DNA of 64,000 nucleotides from Bacillota bacterium (GTDB taxonomy: Bacteria > Bacillota > JAAYKD01): positions 672,001 to 736,000 of the forward strand of contig OY762825.2 in NCBI GenBank assembly GCA_963666425.2, written 5' to 3'. How positions within the stretch are numbered: the stretch's first letter is position 1; the number at the start of each line of letters is the position of its first letter. A program made the position numbers and the translations under genes. The notes under the pieces were generated by a model. It saw nothing but the letters and a program-made list of their open reading frames with translations. It was not told the DNA's origin and ran no database searches. This document shows, in pieces, positions 32,740 through 38,517 of this stretch.

Positions 32740-33231
32740 ATGAATCAAATTCGCCAGTTCGTTTTAGAAGCTTTGGAGTACGCTAACGTTGCTTACAAGA
32801 TCACCGAGCATCCGGCTGTCTATACGATAGAAGAAATGGATCGGCTGCAGATCGATCCTCAAAACGAGGTAGCAAAGAATCTTTTTCTTCGTGATGATAA
32901 AAAGCAAAGATATTTTCTGCTTGTGCTGCCAAAATACAAGCAAGTAGATTTGAATGCGATTCGAATGGCAGTAGACAGCCGACGGTTAAGCTTTGCTTCG
33001 ACAGACGATCTAGCTCATTACTTAGGTTTAAGCAAAGGTGCGGTCTCGCCTCTGGGTGTTCTCAATGATACTGAGCGAAGTGTAGAAGTCGTGTTAGATC
33101 AGGAGCTGCGCAGTTACGAACGCATCGGAGTTCATCCCAACGAGAATACAGCCACGCTTTGGCTGCGCCCGGCCGATTTGCTATTGATCATTCAACAACA
33201 TGGTAATCCGGTCAGCTACTGCCGGTTTTAA
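32740..33231 (+). CDS. YbaK/ProX (PrdX)-family aminoacyl-tRNA editing protein
   Basis: HPAVYT, KNLFLRD, GAVSPLG, GVHPNENTAT. Confidence 0.88.
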   Translation: MNQIRQFVLEALEYANVAYKITEHPAVYTIEEMDRLQIDPQNEVAKNLFLRDDKKQRYFLLVLPKYKQVDLNAIRMAVDSRRLSFASTDDLAHYLGLSKGAVSPLGVLNDTERSVEVVLDQELRSYERIGVHPNENTATLWLRPADLLLIIQQHGNPVSYCRF

Positions 33232-33416
33232 GCCGATTATTTATGTCGATATACGGTTTTTGCCAGGAGATTTCACCCGAAAAATCAATCAAATCGATGC
33301 GTGCGGAACGGTCAAGACCGTTCCCTACATTTTTCGAGTTGGTCAGATTATCAATTTATATCACTGACGAGATGCTTTTAAGAACGAAGCATACAAGTAT
33401 TTTACGAGATTACCGT

Positions 33417-33491
33417 AAAAAACCGCAGGTATCCTGCAGCGAAGCATCACCCCTCGGGGTGCAGCTAGCGGAAGGATACCGAGCGGTTTTT
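33417..33491. repeat. 75-nt imperfect long hairpin, four copies
   Basis: AAAAACCGC-GGTATCCT-...CACCCC TC GGGGTG...-AGGATACC-GCGGTTTTT; other copies at 33744-33818, 35851-35925 and 37657-37731. Confidence 0.85.
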
Positions 33492-33620
33492 GTTATGGTT
33501 AGATTACCCCGATAGGCCAATCAAATCGATGCACGCGGAACGGTCAAGACCGTTCCCTACATTTTTCGAGTTGGTCAGATTATCAATTTACATCACTGAC
33601 GAGATGCTTTTTAGAACGAA

Positions 33621-33702
33621 GCATACAAGCAGATGCAATGCATACAAACAAATGCAATGCATACAAACAAATGCAATGCATACAAACAGATGCAATGCAT
33701 AC
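33621..33702. repeat. 19-bp minisatellite (GCATACAAACAGATGCAAT)n
   Basis: Four units here, about four degenerate units at 35745-35831, three units at 37553-37615, none in the first repeat module. Confidence 0.85.
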
Positions 33703-33861
33703 GAGCTGGGGTAAAGCATACAAGCATTTTACGAGATTACCGTAAAAAACCGCAGGTAACCTACAGCGAAGCATCACCCCTCGGGGTGCAGCTAGCGAAA
33801 GGACGCCGAGCGGTTTTTGTCATGCAAAGTTGAGCCTGATAGATTGAACAAATCGATACAT

Positions 33862-34083
33862 GCGGAACGGTCAAGACCGTTCCCTACCTTGCGAGTTGGT
33901 TGAAGTAACACCGCAATGTAATGAAGCTACGCCAAAACGGGTTACGCGGAACGGTCAAGACCGTTCCCTACCTTGCGAGTTGGTTGAAGTAACACCGCAG
34001 AACGATAGAGTTACGTCAGGACGGGGTACGCGGAACGGTCAAGACCGTTCCCTACCTTGCGAGTTGGTTGAAGTAACACCGCA
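33862..34083. repeat. 84-bp-period REP-linker tandem units
   Basis: REP plus CTTGCGAGTTGGTTGAAGTAACACCGCA repeated at 33862, 33946 and 34030 with related but diverged linkers. Confidence 0.85.
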
Positions 34084-34199
34084 ATGTTGCGTGTAGGTTG
34101 AAATAACACCGCAATGTAATGAAGCTACGCCGGGAACGCAGGGACGCCAGGACTGGGCACGCGGAACGGTCAAGACCGTTCCCTCGTATATACTAATAG

Positions 34200-34432
34200 T
34201 GCCAAGGTAACTCATTTACAGGGTACAGGAAGCGAGCCAAAGCCACTCTTTAGGTATCCAAGGGGTTTGCCCTTTGTGGTATAATTTTGTCAGGCAGAGG
34301 TCAACGTACCGTTCCCTGGGAATCGTTCCTGTGATGTAGAGTGTTGCCTCTGATCTGACAGAAATCTGCGTATTGGCTGGATAGGGTAAAATCCTTGTAT
34401 TTCACGCGAGGTTGCAGCTGTCAGCGTCAGAG
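34200..34432 (+). ncRNA. Predicted IS110 bridge RNA, copy 1 (ends approximate)
   Basis: Target loop with LTG ACCGTTCCCT 34308-34317, inner hairpin and RTG ATGTAG 34334-34339 inside stem 34288-34360; donor loop with TGGCTGGAT 34374-34382 and CGAG 34407-34410. Confidence 0.82.
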
Positions 34433-34474
34433 AGATCATCCTTTGCCGCATTCCAGTTTGAGGAGTTGCTGTAA

Positions 34475-35647
34475 ATGATTACTTTTGGCGTAGACATCGG
34501 TAAATTCCGTCACCAGGCGATCGCGGTGGACGCCAGTGGTCAAGCGCTGGCTCCCTCGTTTGCATTTGAAAATTCCGAAGAGGGCTTTCAATTGTTTTTG
34601 CAGAAGGTCGCTCTTTACCAAAAGCAAGATGCAATTTGCGTCGGCATGGAAGCCACCGGTCATTACTGGCTGAATTTTTATTGTGTTTTACTCGATTTAG
34701 AAATTGAATTGCATGTGGTCAATCCCCTGCTCACCGACGCCATACGGCGCATGTCTGTCCGTAAAACCAAGACGGATACGGTGGATTGCGGTTATATCGC
34801 GGATGTGATCCGCATGGGACGTTATTCCGACGTAGCGGTACAAACGGAGGATGTCCAGAATTTACGCGAGTTATGCCGTTTCCGCTGTTCTCTGGTTGAT
34901 GAGATTGCAAAGCACAAAAACCATGTAATTGGCGTGCTGGATCATCTTTTTCCGGAATATCACAAGCTTTTTTCAGATATTTTCGGTAAAACTTCGCTGG
35001 AGTTGCTCAGCAAGTATCCGTCACCGGATGCCATTCTGAAGCTCGGCACAAAGCGGTTGGCTGATTTTTTAGCGAAGCATTCCCGCGGCAGTTTCGGTGA
35101 GGAAAAAGCGCTGGAGATCCGCAGCGCCTGCAAACACACAGTTGGGGTGAATAGAGCGAATGCTGCTCTATGCTTTGAATTACACCAAACCGTGGATCTG
35201 ATTCAATTCATTGAAGAACAGATTGACGCAATTGAGAATAAGATTGAGCAGATCTATTCCCAATGTGAATGCTATCTGGATACCATTATTGGTGTTGGAG
35301 TCACCTCGGCTGCGGTGATCTACTCGGAAATCGGCAATATTGATAATTTCGAAAATCCAAAGAAATTGGCGGCATTTGCCGGTATTGACCCTTCGATTAA
35401 GCAATCCGGTAATTTCACTTCAACGCACAACACGATGTCGAAGCGAGGCTCACCTTATCTGCGCAGAGCGCTCTGGAATGCTGCAACGGTTGCCGCGCAA
35501 AAAGATCCGGTCATGTCTGCTTTTTACCAGAAGAAACGCGACGAAGGAAAAGATTATATGACGGCAATTGGAGCTGTTACACATAAATTATGCAACATTG
35601 TTTTTGCTGTTTTAAGGGATAAAAAGCCTTATGTTCCCAGAATATAA
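34475..35647 (+). CDS. IS110-family DEDD recombinase/transposase
   Basis: GVDIGK, GMEATG, KTDTVD (DEDD RuvC-like domain); C-terminal AFAGIDP-QSG with catalytic Ser, SKRGSPYLR. Confidence 0.96.
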   Translation: MITFGVDIGKFRHQAIAVDASGQALAPSFAFENSEEGFQLFLQKVALYQKQDAICVGMEATGHYWLNFYCVLLDLEIELHVVNPLLTDAIRRMSVRKTKTDTVDCGYIADVIRMGRYSDVAVQTEDVQNLRELCRFRCSLVDEIAKHKNHVIGVLDHLFPEYHKLFSDIFGKTSLELLSKYPSPDAILKLGTKRLADFLAKHSRGSFGEEKALEIRSACKHTVGVNRANAALCFELHQTVDLIQFIEEQIDAIENKIEQIYSQCECYLDTIIGVGVTSAAVIYSEIGNIDNFENPKKLAAFAGIDPSIKQSGNFTSTHNTMSKRGSPYLRRALWNAATVAAQKDPVMSAFYQKKRDEGKDYMTAIGAVTHKLCNIVFAVLRDKKPYVPRI

Positions 35648-36007
35648 TTTTCGTTTTGCCACTTGACGTTTGATAGCTGGCTACATTTTTTGAGTTGGTC
35701 AGATTATCAATTTATATCACTGACGAGATGCTTTTAAGAACGAAGTATACAAACAGATGCAATGTCATACGAGCAAGAGCAATGCATACAAACAGATGCA
35801 ATGCATACAAACAAGAGCAATGTCATACGAGCATTTTACGAGATTACCGTAAAAAACCGCAGGCATCCTGCAGCGAAGCATCACCCCTCGGGGTGCAGCT
35901 AGCGGAAGGATACCGAGCGGTTTTTGTCATGCAGAGTTGAGCCTGATAGATTGATCAAATCGATGCGTGCGGAACGGTCAAGACCGTTCCCTCGTATATA
36001 CTAGTAG

Positions 36008-36240
36008 TGCCAAGGTAACTCATTTACAGGGTACAGGAAGCGAGCCAAAGCCACTCTTTAAGTATCCAAGGGGTTTGCCCTTTGTGGTATAATTTTGTCA
36101 GGCAGAGGTCAACGTACTGTTCCCTGGGAATCGTTCCTGTGATGTAGAGTGTTGCCTCTGATCTGACAGAAATCTGCGTATTGGCTGGATAGGGTAAAAT
36201 CCTTGTATTTCACGCGAGGTTGCAGCTGTCAGCGTCAGAG
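36008..36240 (+). ncRNA. Predicted IS110 bridge RNA, copy 2 (variant left target guide)
   Basis: Same layout as copy 1, but the LTG reads ACTGTTCCCT (36116-36125). Confidence 0.8.
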
Positions 36241-36282
36241 AGATCATCCTTTGCCGCATTCCAGTTTGAGGAGTTGCTGTAA

Positions 36283-37455
36283 ATGATTACTTTTGGCGTA
36301 GACATCGGTAAATTCCGTCACCAGGCGATCGCGGTGGACGCCAGTGGTCAAGCGCTGGCTCCCTCGTTTGCATTTGAAAATTCCGAAGAGGGCTTTCAAT
36401 TGTTTTTGCAGAAGGTCGCTTTTTACCAAAAGCAAGATGCAATTTGCGTCGGCATGGAAGCCACCGGTCATTACTGGCTGAATTTTTATTGTGTTTTACT
36501 CGATTTAGGAATTGAATTGCATGTGGTCAATCCCCTGCTCACCGACGCCATACGGCGCATGTCTGTCCGTAAAACCAAGACGGATACGGTGGATTGCGGT
36601 TATATCGCGGATGTGATCCGCATGGGACGTTATTCCGACGTAGCGGTACAAACGGAGGATGTCCAGAATTTACGCGAGTTATGCCGTTTCCGCTGTTCTC
36701 TGGTTGATGAGATTGCAAAGCACAAAAACCATGTAATTGGCGTGCTGGATCACCTTTTTCCGGAATATCACAAGCTGTTTTCAGATATTTTCGGTAAAAC
36801 TTCGCTGGAGTTGCTCAGCAAGTATCCGTCACCGGATGCCATTCTGAAGCTCGGTACAAAGCGGTTGGCTGATTTTTTAGCGAAGCATTCCCGCGGCAGT
36901 TTCGGTGAGGAAAAAGCGCTCGAGATCCGCAGCGCCTGCAGACACACTGTTGGTGTGAATAGAGCGAACGCTGCTCTATGCTTTGAATTACACCAAACCG
37001 TGGATCTGATTCAATTCATTGAAGAACAGATTGACGCAATTGAGAATAAGATTGAGCAGATCTATTCCCAATGTGAATGCTATCTGGATACCATTATTGG
37101 TGTTGGAGTCACCTCGGCTGCGGTGATCTACTCGGAAATCGGCAATATTGATAATTTCGAAAATCCAAAGAAATTGGCGGCATTTGCCGGTATTGACCCT
37201 TCGATTAAGCAATCCGGTAATTTCACTTCAACGCACAACACGATGTCGAAGCGAGGCTCACCTTATCTGCGCAGAGCGCTCTGGAATGCCGCAACGGTTG
37301 CCGCGCAAAAAGATCCGGTCATGTCTGCTTTTTACCAGAAGAAACGCGACGAAGGAAAAGATTATATGACGGCAATTGGAGCTGTTACACATAAATTATG
37401 CAACATTGTTTTCGCTGTTTTAAGGGATAAAAAGCCTTATGTTCCCAGAATATAA
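36283..37455 (+). CDS. IS110-family DEDD recombinase/transposase, copy 2
   Basis: 390 aa, three substitutions versus copy 1 (L>F, E>G, K>R), catalytic motifs intact. Confidence 0.96.
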   Translation: MITFGVDIGKFRHQAIAVDASGQALAPSFAFENSEEGFQLFLQKVAFYQKQDAICVGMEATGHYWLNFYCVLLDLGIELHVVNPLLTDAIRRMSVRKTKTDTVDCGYIADVIRMGRYSDVAVQTEDVQNLRELCRFRCSLVDEIAKHKNHVIGVLDHLFPEYHKLFSDIFGKTSLELLSKYPSPDAILKLGTKRLADFLAKHSRGSFGEEKALEIRSACRHTVGVNRANAALCFELHQTVDLIQFIEEQIDAIENKIEQIYSQCECYLDTIIGVGVTSAAVIYSEIGNIDNFENPKKLAAFAGIDPSIKQSGNFTSTHNTMSKRGSPYLRRALWNAATVAAQKDPVMSAFYQKKRDEGKDYMTAIGAVTHKLCNIVFAVLRDKKPYVPRI

Positions 37456-37743
37456 TTTTCGTTTTGCCACTTGACGTTTGATAGCTGGCTACATTTTTCG
37501 AGTTGGTCAAATTATCAATTTACATCACTGACGAGATGCTTTTAAGAACGAAGCATACAAACAGATGCAATGCATACAAACAGATGCAATGCATACAAAC
37601 AGATGCAATGCATACGAGCTGGGGTAAAGCATACAAGCATTTTACGAGATTACCGTAAAAAACCGCAGGTATCCTGCAGCGAAGCATCACCCCTCGGGGT
37701 GCAGCTAGCGAAAGGACGCCGAGCGGTTTTTGTCGTGATGGGT

Positions 37744-38517
37744 TTATACAATCGGTTTTTCCTGTGGCATCAGCCTAAGCGCCAATGCATCGCCGTTTCC
37801 ATTCGGCTGGTAATCGATGTTGGCTTTTCTAGCCTGACTACCCTGCAAATTGCGGGGAATTCGATACTGTCTGCCCTCTTTGCGAAAATTCGCCCCGGTT
37901 TGCTTAAAATGAAAAGCAACCCGATGCGCAATACACTGCTCCCGGATCTTTAAGACCCAAGCATAATCGCAGACCCGCACATCCACCCCCGACTCGCCGC
38001 CAACCACCACCTGCTGAATTTGCGGTGTCAGAAAAGGTGAAAGATCTTCCGGTCCCAGCAAAGGTTCACAAATGATCAATTTCGTGCGAATTGCAGCTTT
38101 GAGAAAAATTGGTAAACGGTACTCCACCATCTCCTGATTCTCTACCGTGCAGCCGATCGTCACATTGGCGTATCCTTCACCCCAATCGGGCGGCAGACAC
38201 TCCTGCATGCGGTGGATCCGCTTCGTGATAAAGAAAAAATTCAAGTCAGAACGCTGCCGCATCATCTGCCAGGCTTGCGGCCGCCAAGCGTCGGCATCCT
38301 CCAGAAAAAAATCAGAAGTGAAGCAGGTATAAACCGTTTCCCCGCTCGGAATCTTATATTCACCCTGGCGGTTGCGTTTGAGCGGCAAGTCAAAATAGTT
38401 GGTTTTCCGCACGAGACTGCTGTCCAGTTGATGCCGCCCATCCATCCGGTAAACATAACAATTCAGACAGCCTGCGCTGAATTTATGACAGCCGTGCCAA
38501 AGATTCCAAGACGCCAT
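37744..38517 (-). CDS. DUF5131 (phage Gp37/Gp68-like, radical SAM-like) protein
   Basis: WNLWHGCHKFSAGCLNCY (three-Cys motif), TSDFF, TKRI, EPLL, VGGESG, FKQTG. Confidence 0.88.
   Translation of the reverse strand: MASWNLWHGCHKFSAGCLNCYVYRMDGRHQLDSSLVRKTNYFDLPLKRNRQGEYKIPSGETVYTCFTSDFFLEDADAWRPQAWQMMRQRSDLNFFFITKRIHRMQECLPPDWGEGYANVTIGCTVENQEMVEYRLPIFLKAAIRTKLIICEPLLGPEDLSPFLTPQIQQVVVGGESGVDVRVCDYAWVLKIREQCIAHRVAFHFKQTGANFRKEGRQYRIPRNLQGSQARKANIDYQPNGNGDALALRLMPQEKPIV

What the first reader, a model, noticed from the sequence alone, without database searches (positions are those of the whole stretch)
34183..35682. Complete IS110 bridge-recombinase system whose RNA guides can be read against its own REP insertion site
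Seen: the element lies between GACCGTTCC-CT and CT-ACAT, so the empty target is ACCGTTCC[CT]ACAT. The 5' non-coding end has a stem (TGTCAG-CAGAGG-CAAC 34288-34305 with GTTG-CCTCTG-CTGACA 34343-34360). It encloses ACCGTTCCCT (34308-34317, identical to the left target plus core), a small GGAA/TTCC hairpin and ATGTAG (34334-34339, exact reverse complement of CTACAT). A second loop holds TGGCTGGAT (7/9 to the donor left arm TAGCTGGCT), an AGG/CCT hairpin and CGAG (reverse complement of donor CTCG). Established: IS110-family elements such as IS621 use a two-loop bridge RNA, a DEDD/Ser recombinase and a CT core, and IS621 targets REPs. Inference: this is an intact, reprogrammable Bacillota bridge system aimed at a different GTAG-REP, with 14 contiguous target bases covered by the guides. 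The mechanism class is known; whether this ortholog is described cannot be judged without a search.
Basis: partly seen in the sequence, partly recalled or inferred. Interest (0 to 1): 0.9.

Follow-up and report, generated by a model that had tools for sequence, protein, structure and literature searches.

The report
REP-targeting IS110 bridge-RNA insertion sequence
This is an intact IS110-family insertion sequence, present ten times in an uncultured Bacillota genome, whose non-coding end encodes a two-loop guide RNA that spells out the repeated palindrome it always inserts beside; it is a new but ordinary member of the known bridge-recombinase family.

Summary
The element is 1498 bp plus a shared CT core. 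Its ends are fixed by two empty sites in the window and by ten 99%-identical copies in the genome. All ten lie after the same GTAG-type REP hairpin, in one orientation. The 390-aa protein has both IS110 domains and passes NCBI's model for IS110 RNA-guided transposases. It keeps the DEDD and Ser-Gly residues of IS621.

None of 200,000 shuffles reproduced both.

About 150 relatives share the two-loop fold, supported by compensatory changes. Their target-loop guides track their own flanks (0 of 5000 permutations, in two independent sets). The closest relatives carry different guides aimed at different REP-like hairpins.

Corrections:
- The outer TGTCAG/CTGACA helix is not conserved. CTGACAG more likely closes the donor loop.
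- Nine of the ten copies carry ACTGTTCCCT, a U·G wobble against the common REP.
- A conserved extended -10 box sits just upstream of the target loop.

RNA expression and recombination remain untested. Verdict: a new member of a known kind, of moderate-to-low interest.

The parts
34163..34182 (+). REP hairpin GGAACGGTC-AA-GACCGTTCC. Its 3' arm (34175-34182, ACCGTTCC) is the left target.
   Evidence: 130 such hairpins in the genome; 118 are followed by CTAC and 10 by the IS; sequence.
34183..34184 (+). Left copy of the CT core.
   Evidence: Empty sites read ...GTTCC CT ACAT; all 10 copies have CT at both junctions.
34185..34474 (+). Left non-coding end (LE, 290 nt). It holds the right donor arm CGTATATAC... 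and the bridge RNA gene.
   Evidence: LE is far longer than RE, as in the IS110 group.
34189..34194 (+). TATACT, candidate -10 half of the promoter formed only across the RE-LE circle junction.
   Evidence: Lies 18 nt from TTGACG 35663-35668 when the ends are joined through one CT (coordinates). Relatives carry CT-CGTATAAT at the same place. Function is inferred from IS621.
34275..34285 (+). TGTGGTATAAT, an extended -10 box just upstream of the target-binding loop. It is a candidate internal promoter, with a predicted RNA start near 34292.
   Evidence: A TATAAT-like box 7-14 nt upstream of the stem in 71 of 76 aligned left ends, mostly preceded by TG. Not flagged by the -35-dependent scan.
34295..34305 (+). 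5' strands of the target-binding-loop stem (CAGAGG, CAAC). They pair with GTTG and CCTCTG at 34343-34352.
   Evidence: Alignment columns 43-54 with 100-109 of A2 carry many compensatory changes.
34308..34317 (+). Left target guide ACCGTTCCCT, identical to the left target plus core, so the RNA pairs with the bottom strand. It reads ACTGTTCCCT in the other 9 copies.
   Evidence: guide-flank covariation.
34318..34330 (+). Small hairpin GGGAA-TCG-TTCC(T) inside the target-binding loop.
   Evidence: Columns 70-74 with 81-85: all 5 pairs show changes on both sides, 84.7% of cells paired.
34334..34339 (+). Right target guide ATGTAG, the reverse complement of CT-ACAT.
   Evidence: The terminal AG is invariant in 76 of 76 sequences. 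Right-flank covariation.
34343..34352 (+). 3' strands of the target-binding-loop stem (GTTG, CCTCTG).
34355..34369 (+). 5' strands of the donor-binding-loop stem: CTGACAG (basal) and CTGC (inner). They pair with GCAG 34414-34417 and CTGTCAG 34418-34424.
   Evidence: A basal helix of at least 6 contiguous pairs in 72 of 76 relatives, with varied sequences. Inner helix 97.7% paired, with all 4 pairs compensatory.
34373..34382 (+). Left donor guide TTGGCTGGAT, set against the donor left arm ATAGCTGG-CT.
   Evidence: 7 of 9 identical, plus one G·T wobble; A stands opposite the first core base. ...GCTGGAT is conserved in relatives.
34383..34396 (+). Hairpin AGGG-TAAAAT-CCTT inside the donor-binding loop.
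   Evidence: Columns 141-144 with 169-172: all 4 pairs compensatory.
34406..34410 (+). Right donor guide GCGAG, set against the donor CT-CGT. CGAG matches exactly and the G pairs with T as a wobble.
   Evidence: Relatives carry AACGAG against CT-CGT(A/T).
34414..34424 (+). 3' strands of the donor-binding-loop stem (GCAG, CTGTCAG).
34475..35647 (+). IS110 recombinase gene, 390 aa.
   Evidence: The ORF is intact in all 10 copies.
35648..35680 (+). Right non-coding end (33 nt), with the -35-like TTGACG (35663-35668) and the donor left arm TAGCTGG (35674-35680).
35681..35686 (+). Right copy of the CT core (35681-35682) and the right target ACAT (35683-35686).
35991..37490 (+). Second copy of the element in the window (99% identical, guide ACTGTTCCCT), inserted at the next REP of the same array.
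33305..33330 (+). Unoccupied target site (REP hairpin + CT + ACAT). A second one lies at 33537-33562.

Best explanation
This is an intact IS110-group insertion sequence: 1498 bp plus one shared CT, with no inverted repeats and no target duplication.

Its 290-nt left end encodes a bridge RNA of roughly 130-170 nt with two internal loops.
- Target loop. [quoted passage not shown] - Donor loop. UGGCUGGAU and GCGAG pair in the same way with the joined element ends, ...TAGCTGG-CT-CGTAT...

The DEDD/Ser recombinase, bound to this RNA, would recombine the circular element with a REP at the CT that forms part of the REP's CTAC (= GTAG) motif. This explains ten same-oriented insertions at one position of one repeat family.

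Shown here: the anatomy, the family membership, the conserved fold, and guide-target covariation among relatives.

Inferred from IS621, ISCro4 and CazIS110-1: that the RNA is made, binds the protein and directs the reaction.

A conserved extended -10 box just upstream of the target loop suggests that integrated copies can transcribe the RNA. A second promoter (TTGACG, 18 nt, TATACT) would form only across the circle junction.
For: - Boundaries: two empty sites in the window and 10 copies at 99% identity, all after GAC(C/T)GTTCC-CT in one orientation.
- Protein: PF01548 at 5e-40 and PF02371 at 8e-26. NF033542 at 260 bits, above the 140 cut-off. Hits to ISCro4 and IS621 chains at 1e-19, with D7, E59, D101, D104 and S311-G312 aligned to the catalytic residues. 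Open 390-aa frames in 10 of 10 copies.
- Guides: 10 of 10 and 6 of 6 matches in the finding's copy. 0 of 200,000 shuffles gave both.
- Fold: on 76 aligned left ends, 78.5% of cells paired against 63.8% in shuffles. 25 of 29 pairs have two-sided changes. Covariation score 0.480 against 0.213 in shuffles and 0.09-0.16 with slid partners.
- Guide-flank covariation, genome set of 43 distinct loci: left 242 of 344 matches against 183.9 +/- 6.1 in permutations; right 150 of 258 against 83.4 +/- 6.8; 0 of 5000 permutations reached either.
- Guide-flank covariation, metagenome set of 35 loci: left 208 of 280 against 146.6; right 134 of 210 against 68.8; 0 of 5000.
- Closest relatives (61-64% aa identity). 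L095 has guide CCGTCCCCT at hairpin GGGACGG-AAAA-CCCGTCCC|CT|AC. L096 has guide GTCGCCCCT, with a right guide that reads CTACAAAAAA, at GTAG-GGGCGAAC-ACA-GTTCGCCC|CT|ACAAGG.
- The donor guides and the element ends are conserved while the target guides vary.
- An internal -10 box is present in 71 of 76 relatives.
- The anatomy matches the published model: the left guide pairs with the bottom strand, the right guide with the top strand, the core is included in all four pairings, and the right donor guide is shorter or discontiguous. IS621 also inserts at ...GGC|CT|AC of E. coli REPs, and its loop differs from the commonest target by one wobble-type position.
Against: - There is no direct evidence of the RNA. 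One metatranscriptome holds two contigs over 34161-34371 and 34403-34669, but contigs give neither strand nor start, one runs in from the flank, and DNA carry-over cannot be excluded.
- Minimum-free-energy folds of the left end are not better than shuffles (z = -1.5 and -1.7). RNAalifold alone recovered only 8 pairs.
- The left donor guide has a plain mismatch (A opposite C) at the first core position. The right donor guide covers only 4-5 bases.
- 3 of the 10 insertions have a mismatch in the right target (ACCT). 8 of the 9 copies with the U guide sit at C-type REPs.
- L012 matches its own left flank at only 5 of 8 positions.
- The permutation tests do not correct for shared descent of loci.
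- The ten copies occupy at least 6 distinct flank contexts, but four pairs lie in the same REP arrays. Some copies could therefore have arisen by array duplication rather than by insertion.
Confidence: 0.9

Rival explanations
1. The REP-like words in the left end are a captured fragment of the REP, or chance similarity to a palindromic target, and not an RNA guide. Under this reading the protein alone recognises the REP hairpin.
For: The target is a palindrome, so REP-like words can also pair within the left end: the MFE folds pair the guide region internally. A 2026 preprint, seen only as a search listing and abstract start (10.64898/2026.03.19.712850), reports that target structure adds specificity for ISPpu10.
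Against: The same two positions of a conserved fold carry different words in relatives, and those words match each relative's own flanks. 0 of 5000 permutations reached this in two sets. L095 and L096 show the same pattern at close range. 0 of 200,000 shuffles gave both words.
Confidence: 0.03
2. It is a genuine bridge-RNA element that no longer moves. Under this reading the ten copies spread by duplication of REP arrays, and the system is a relic.
For: Four pairs of copies lie 1.7-2.3 kb apart in the same REP arrays with similar flanks. No circle junction or polymorphic empty site specific to an occupied locus was seen. The 34182->35681 joint in runs X1 and X3 has only 21 matching letters on its shorter side, so it is indistinguishable from the 118 other empty REPs.
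Against: There are at least 6 different flank contexts, including a second contig. The copies are 99% identical, with 10 of 10 intact ORFs and catalytic residues in place. Guides and ends are intact in all copies.
Confidence: 0.1
3. The functional RNA is not one two-loop molecule. Instead, separate target-loop and donor-loop RNAs, or a mixture, act as reported for CazIS110-1.
For: In CazIS110-1 a 77-nt target-loop-only RNA made up 90.4% of the RNAs bound to the protein. Here CTGACAG can pair either upstream (TGTCAG) or downstream (CTGTCAG), so two folds compete.
Against: In that same study the full-length RNA was required for both excision and integration. Nothing in the sequence marks a processing site.
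Confidence: 0.25

Closest known systems
IS621 of Escherichia coli (IS110 group; bridge RNA, Durrant et al. 2024, Hiraizumi et al. 2024)
   Same: The domain pair is the same, as are the DEDD and Ser-Gly residues, the CT core and the long left end that encodes a two-loop RNA. The four guide segments have the same layout. Both insert at the CT of the CTAC (GTAG) motif at the foot of a REP: ATCAGGC|CT|AC in IS621, ACCGTTCC|CT|ACAT here. In both, one wobble-type difference separates the loop from the commonest target.
   Different: The proteins are only distantly related: phmmer 1.7e-19, mainly over the C-terminal domain; 390 aa here against 326 aa. The guides are longer here (8+2 and 2+4, against 7+2 and 2+2). 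The left end is 290 nt against 191 nt. A conserved extended -10 box lies just upstream of the target loop, where IS621 has a 5' stem-loop. The host phylum and the REP family differ.
CazIS110-1 of Caloranaerobacter azorensis (bioRxiv 10.1101/2025.10.25.684509)
   Same: A Bacillota IS110 element with 10 genomic copies and a two-loop bRNA of about 170 nt, shown to be active in vivo and in vitro.
   Different: Tissierellales relatives in my set are about 47% identical to this protein, and their guides aim at Shine-Dalgarno-like sites, not REPs.
ISPpu9 / ISPpu10 of Pseudomonas putida (IS110 family, REP-targeting)
   Same: IS110-family elements found in several copies, all inserted into REP sequences (abstracts seen).
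   Different: They are proteobacterial elements with other REPs. ISPpu9 carries an extra small-RNA gene downstream of the transposase. No sequence comparison was made here.
IS1111 group / seekRNA elements
   Same: The same recombinase family and RNA-guided targeting.
   Different: In those elements the guide RNA lies in a long right end, with subterminal inverted repeats. Here the right end is 33 nt and the RNA lies in the left end.

Membership tests
IS110 family, IS110 group (bridge recombinase system) | [quoted passage not shown] | tested here: met
   PF01548 over residues 5-160 (5.2e-40) and PF02371 over 268-352 (8.2e-26). NF033542 at 260.2 bits against a cut-off of 140.
IS110 family, IS110 group (bridge recombinase system) | Catalytic D, E, D, D and Ser(-Gly) residues | tested here: met
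   D7, E59, D101, D104 and S311-G312 align with ISCro4 and IS621 motifs in phmmer alignments. The IS621 residues are named.
IS110 family, IS110 group (bridge recombinase system) | No terminal inverted repeats or target duplication; one CT core at each junction; site-specific insertion | tested here: met
   Empty sites compared with occupied sites. 10 of 10 copies lie at the same REP position and in the same orientation.
IS110 family, IS110 group (bridge recombinase system) | Left non-coding end much longer than the right end | tested here: met
   290 nt against 33 nt. The criterion is stated.
IS110 family, IS110 group (bridge recombinase system) | Two-loop structured RNA encoded in the left end | tested here: met
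   Stems and loop hairpins are supported by compensatory changes in 76 sequences, as is the donor-loop basal stem. No Rfam family matched.
IS110 family, IS110 group (bridge recombinase system) | Target-loop guides complementary to the target and covarying with it | tested here: met
   Own copy matches at 10 of 10 and 6 of 6 positions. Permutation tests gave 0 of 5000 in two sets. Close relatives have other guides and other targets.
IS110 family, IS110 group (bridge recombinase system) | Donor-loop guides complementary to the joined element ends | tested here: met
   Left donor guide: 7 of 9 identical plus one wobble. Right donor guide: 4 exact plus one wobble. Both guides and both ends are conserved across relatives. 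There is a mismatch at the first core base.
IS110 family, IS110 group (bridge recombinase system) | Promoter rebuilt across the circle junction | tested here: inconclusive
   TTGACG, 18 nt, TATACT by inspection. Relatives have TATAAT at the same place. No expression data.
IS110 family, IS110 group (bridge recombinase system) | RNA is expressed, binds the recombinase and directs recombination | not testable with these tools
   The only data are metatranscriptome contigs of unknown strand.
REP / RAYT repeat system (the target) | Short imperfect palindrome preceded by GTAG, in more than 100 extragenic copies, often in arrays | tested here: met
   130 hairpins; 128 carry CTAC or the IS on one side; they are clustered in arrays.
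REP / RAYT repeat system (the target) | A REP-associated tyrosine transposase gene flanked by REPs | tested here: inconclusive
   The ORF at G000:C1:533030-533401 lies between two REPs. It scores 28.6 bits on PF01797 (cut-off 23) but 69.4 bits on NF047646, below that model's cut-off of 80. The two flanking REPs are in the same orientation, not inverted.

The most novel reading that the evidence does not exclude
In this Bacillota clade the bridge RNA may be transcribed from a conserved extended -10 promoter placed right at the target loop, so integrated copies would make it without first circularising. That would be a different answer to the IS621 'chicken-and-egg' problem. The same scaffold has been re-aimed repeatedly between two kinds of abundant sites that share ...CC|CT: the 5' edge of Shine-Dalgarno sequences (most relatives) and the GTAG foot of REP hairpins (this element, L095, L096, L023/L024, L033). 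The C/U difference between the copies in this genome would then be guide evolution caught in progress. The U guide can pair with both REP alleles (A, or G by wobble), and the C guide with only the major allele.
Probability: 0.35. Interest if true: 0.5.

Novelty: new member of a known kind. Interest (0 to 1): 0.35.

Why it matters
The mechanism has been established since 2024. Bridge RNAs have been predicted for most IS110 elements and mined at very large scale, so this element adds no new principle.

Its value is as a clean natural example:
- ten intact copies;
- about 118 unoccupied cognate sites in the same genome;
- a natural guide polymorphism next to a matching target polymorphism;
- close relatives whose guides have shifted to other REP families.

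Together these make a compact test set for guide-target rules, wobble tolerance and REP targeting outside Proteobacteria. The 8+2+4 recognition length is slightly longer than that of IS621, which is of some interest when choosing orthologues for genome engineering.

Tried and rejected
- Rfam 15 scan of 33000-38000 at E <= 1 found no bridge-RNA family, only two chance hits.
- MFE folding of the left end gave z-scores of -1.5 and -1.7 and paired the guides internally, so it is not informative.
- RNAalifold on the MAFFT alignment returned only 8 pairs. I therefore tested a hand-written structure.
- The sigma-70 scan found no + strand promoter in 34100-35800. It needs a -35 match and so misses extended -10 promoters.
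Columns 36-39 with 114-117 are mostly unpaired in relatives.
- Sequencing runs. One RNA library (X12, share 0.19) holds two contigs over parts of the left end and the start of the CDS. X20 holds 34691-34828 only. Both are contigs and cannot show strand, ends or level.
- The joint 34182->35681 in X1 and X3 (21 letters on its shorter side) cannot be told apart from other empty REPs and is no evidence of excision. The joint 34671->35519 in X1 (side 20) was not followed up.
- No part without cover is interpreted.
- I considered a seekRNA / IS1111 arrangement and rejected it, because the right end is only 33 nt.
- I did not fold the protein or predict a complex. Family membership was already clear, and no binding claim rests on such a job.
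The 74-92% identical proteins could therefore not be placed on DNA.
I could not see the tables of Durrant 2024, the orthologue screen preprint 10.1101/2025.05.14.653916 (search listing only), or the mining preprint. These may list this orthologue or close ones.
- No ISfinder search was possible.
- Searches for prior description were. None named this element or a Bacillota REP-targeting IS110. This covers only the held library.

Rows dropped before counts:
- Genome set. Of 80 loci, 5 were left out before alignment (L043, L061, L067, L078, L091: short or disrupted upstream). 22 lacked a unique LE/RE match or had an odd RE. 10 had flanks that were too short, and 1 was a duplicate.
- Metagenome set. 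Of 80 loci, 5 were left out of my table (L116, L134, L158, L168, L171) and 2 had under 200 nt upstream. 33 of the remaining 73 lacked a unique LE/RE, among them L095, which I read by eye. 5 had short flanks or short guides.
Full report
**What is in the sequence**

The left flank ends ...GGAACGGTCAAGACCGTTCC. It is followed by CT and then CGTATATAC... The right end reads ...TTGATAGCTGG, CT, ACATTTTT.

The same hairpin followed directly by CTACATTTTTCGAG occurs uninterrupted at 33305-33330 and 33537-33562. The element is therefore 1498 bp plus one shared CT, and the empty site is ACCGTTCC-CT-ACAT.

A second copy, 99% identical, lies at 35991-37490 at the next hairpin of the same array.

The whole genome has 3.2 Mb in 18 contigs, and the window is C1:672001-736000. 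It holds 10 full copies and one 83-bp left-end fragment. All 10 copies lie in one orientation after GAC(C/T)GTTCC-CT and before CT-AC(A/C)T. Eight left targets read ACCGTTCC and two read ACTGTTCC. Seven right targets read ACAT and three read ACCT. The copies occupy at least six different flank contexts. Four pairs lie within the same repeat arrays.

**The protein**

The 390-aa ORF (34475-35647) carries PF01548 (DEDD_Tnp_IS110, 5e-40) and PF02371 (Transposase_20, 8e-26). It passes NCBI's equivalog model NF033542, 'IS110 family RNA-guided transposase', at 260 bits against a cut-off of 140.

Its only solved relatives are ISCro4 (9t56) and IS621 (8wt6), at about 1e-19. In those alignments GVD7IG, ME59ATG, KTD101TVD104 and QS311G312 fall on the motifs that hold IS621 D11, E60, D102, D105 and S241-G242.

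All ten genomic copies have open 390-aa frames.

In a 5.8-billion-protein collection, the relatives at 92% and at 74-79% identity come only from unnamed metagenome or Logan contigs. The first protein with an NCBI name is 49% identical.

**The RNA**

The coordinates in the left end are as follows:
- CAGAGG-T-CAAC at 34295-34305, pairing with GTTG-CCTCTG at 34343-34352;
- ACCGTTCCCT at 34308-34317, identical to the left target plus core;
- a GGGAA/TTCC hairpin at 34318-34330;
- ATGTAG at 34334-34339, the reverse complement of CTACAT.

This is the published layout: the left target guide has the sense of the top strand, the right target guide is antisense to it, and both include the core.

In 200,000 shuffles of the left end the 10-mer arose 25 times. 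The 10-mer together with the 6-mer never arose.

The second loop holds:
- TTGGCTGGAT (34373-34382), against the donor arm ATAGCTGG-CT: 7 of 9 identical, one G·T wobble, and A opposite the first core base;
- an AGGG/CCTT hairpin;
- GCGAG (34406-34410), against CT-CGT.

**Comparative test**

I fetched 80 relatives from one-genome-per-species contigs. The best is 64% identical and the rest are 51% or less; nearly all are Bacillota by their titles. I fetched 80 more from metagenomes (best 64% and 61%).

The 150-nt stretch upstream of the genes aligns well (A2, 76 sequences). The stems and the donor-loop words ...GAGCTGGAT and ...AACGAGG are conserved. The two target-loop segments are hypervariable, apart from an invariant CT-binding end.

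I tested a hand-specified structure on A2:
- 78.5% of cells form standard pairs, against 63.8% in shuffles and 44-50% with slid partners.
- 25 of 29 pairs show changes on both sides.
- The covariation score is 0.480, against 0.213 in shuffles.

For loci with unambiguous ends I compared guides with flanks.
- Genome set, 43 distinct loci: 242 of 344 left positions match (permuted mean 183.9 +/- 6.1) and 150 of 258 right positions match (83.4 +/- 6.8). 0 of 5000 permutations reached either value.
- Metagenome set, 35 loci: 208 of 280 left (146.6) and 134 of 210 right (68.8). Again 0 of 5000.

These tests do not correct for shared ancestry.

The nearest relatives make the point directly:
- L095 has guide CCGTCCCCT and sits at GGGACGG-AAAA-CCCGTCCC|CT|AC.
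- L096 has guide GTCGCCCCT, and its right guide reads CTACAAAAAA. It sits at GTAG-GGGCGAAC-ACA-GTTCGCCC|CT|ACAAGG.

Homologues with different targets therefore have different loop sequences.

One counter-example is L012 (64% identical), which matches its left flank at only 5 of 8 positions. Its guide resembles that of L096, so this may be an off-target insertion.

- The outer TGTCAG/CTGACA helix is not conserved. In 72 of 76 sequences, the segment after the target-loop stem pairs with the segment after the donor-loop inner stem, as a helix of 6 or more contiguous pairs with varied sequence. In this element that pairing is CTGACAG 34355-34361 with CTGTCAG 34418-34424.
- 71 of 76 left ends have a TATAAT-like box 7-14 nt upstream of the target-loop stem, mostly with the TG of an extended -10.
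- A junction promoter is also plausible: TTGACG at 35663-35668, 18 nt through the CT, then TATACT at 34189-34194.
- Nine of the ten copies carry ACTGTTCCCT. DNA runs and the one RNA run show the same T at 34310. The U guide pairs perfectly with the minor REP allele and by U·G wobble with the major one. IS621 shows the same habit: its loop encodes ATCGGGCCTAC while its commonest target is ATCAGGCCTAC.

**The target**

The hairpin GGAAC(G/A)GTC-AA-GAC(C/T)GTTCC occurs 130 times in the genome. 118 copies are followed by CTAC and 10 by the element. Read on the other strand this is GTAG plus a palindrome, the REP signature.

A 158-aa HUH/Y1 protein is encoded at C1:533030-533401, between two such REPs. 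It matches PF01797 above its cut-off. It matches the REP-associated tyrosine transposase model NF047646 at 69 bits, below that model's cut-off of 80.

The CT core is the CT of CTAC. This is the same position at which IS621 enters E. coli REPs.

**Host**

RecA is 98% identical to a protein named 'Negativicutes bacterium' (MAG). It is 86% identical to one named 'Bacillota bacterium', and 73-79% identical to Peptococcaceae and Desulfotomaculum proteins. 'Bacillota' holds.

**What is not shown**

Expression is not shown. A metatranscriptome holds two contigs over parts of the left end, but contigs give no strand, start or level, and DNA carry-over is possible. Activity, RNA binding and reprogrammability are inferred from IS621, ISCro4 and CazIS110-1.

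**Novelty**

Bridge RNAs were predicted for 85.7% of ISfinder IS110-group elements in 2024. In 2026 they were mined from 181,180 IS110-adjacent intergenic sequences. REP targeting by IS110 elements has been known since 2003-2006, according to the reference list seen. This is a new, uncharacterised orthologue of a known kind.

My searches found no description of it, nor of a Bacillota REP-targeting IS110. Supplements and ISfinder could not be consulted.

Noticed in passing
L013-L091 and L097-L174 (left flanks of relatives): Most distant relatives (about 45-50% aa identity) have left target guides ending ...(C/T)CTCCT. Read on the other strand, their left flank is AGGAGG, a spacer, then a start codon. 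44 of 68 such flanks have an ORF of at least 60 aa starting 8-19 nt from the core. That clade seems to insert at the 5' edge of Shine-Dalgarno sites of outward-facing genes. One library search found no paper that says so.
   Followed up: partly
window 33240-37750: The REPs sit in a long non-coding composite repeat region. It contains 84-bp-spaced units (33864, 33948, 34032), units of about 230 bp with a GC-rich hairpin (...CCGCAGGTATCCTGCAGCGAAGCATCACCCCTCGGGGTGCAG...), and tandem 16-17-nt repeats (GCAATGCATACAAACA...). Other arrays in the genome have a 184-bp spacing (C1:578113-579893).
   Followed up: no
G000:C1:533030-533401 (- strand), locus L094: A candidate REP-associated tyrosine transposase (158 aa from the first Met, HVHAI and YIDENP motifs), flanked by two REPs in the same orientation. 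The upstream in-frame stretch is a PRSPFLV repeat. Two further Y1_Tnp matches with 247-aa frames lie at C8:4493-4825 and C1:435734-436066.
   Followed up: partly
G000:C1:1593457-1593539 (locus L011): An 83-bp fragment, 86% identical to element positions 7-87, on the opposite strand beside the copy at 1591867-1593366. It may be a remnant left end.
   Followed up: no
window 34428-34434 and relatives (A2, 3' of the donor loop): A second CAGAG(A/G)G word follows the donor loop in this element and in most relatives (e.g. GTAGAGAGG, TCAGAGG). In many relatives the next 10-15 nt are complementary to the 5' strand of the target-loop stem (e.g. CTTTATCTGT with ACAGATAGAG). This suggests an alternative fold near the ribosome-binding site.
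   Followed up: no
G000:C1:92799-94298 (- strand copy): This copy has GCAA instead of GCAG in the 3' strand of the donor-loop inner stem, which breaks one C-G pair.
   Followed up: no
L023/L024 and L033: Relatives at about 46-47% identity also aim at REP-like hairpins: GGGAACGTAATACGTTTCCC|CT|ACAG, and ...GCGGTTCCC|CT. REP targeting therefore occurs more than once in the clade.
   Followed up: partly
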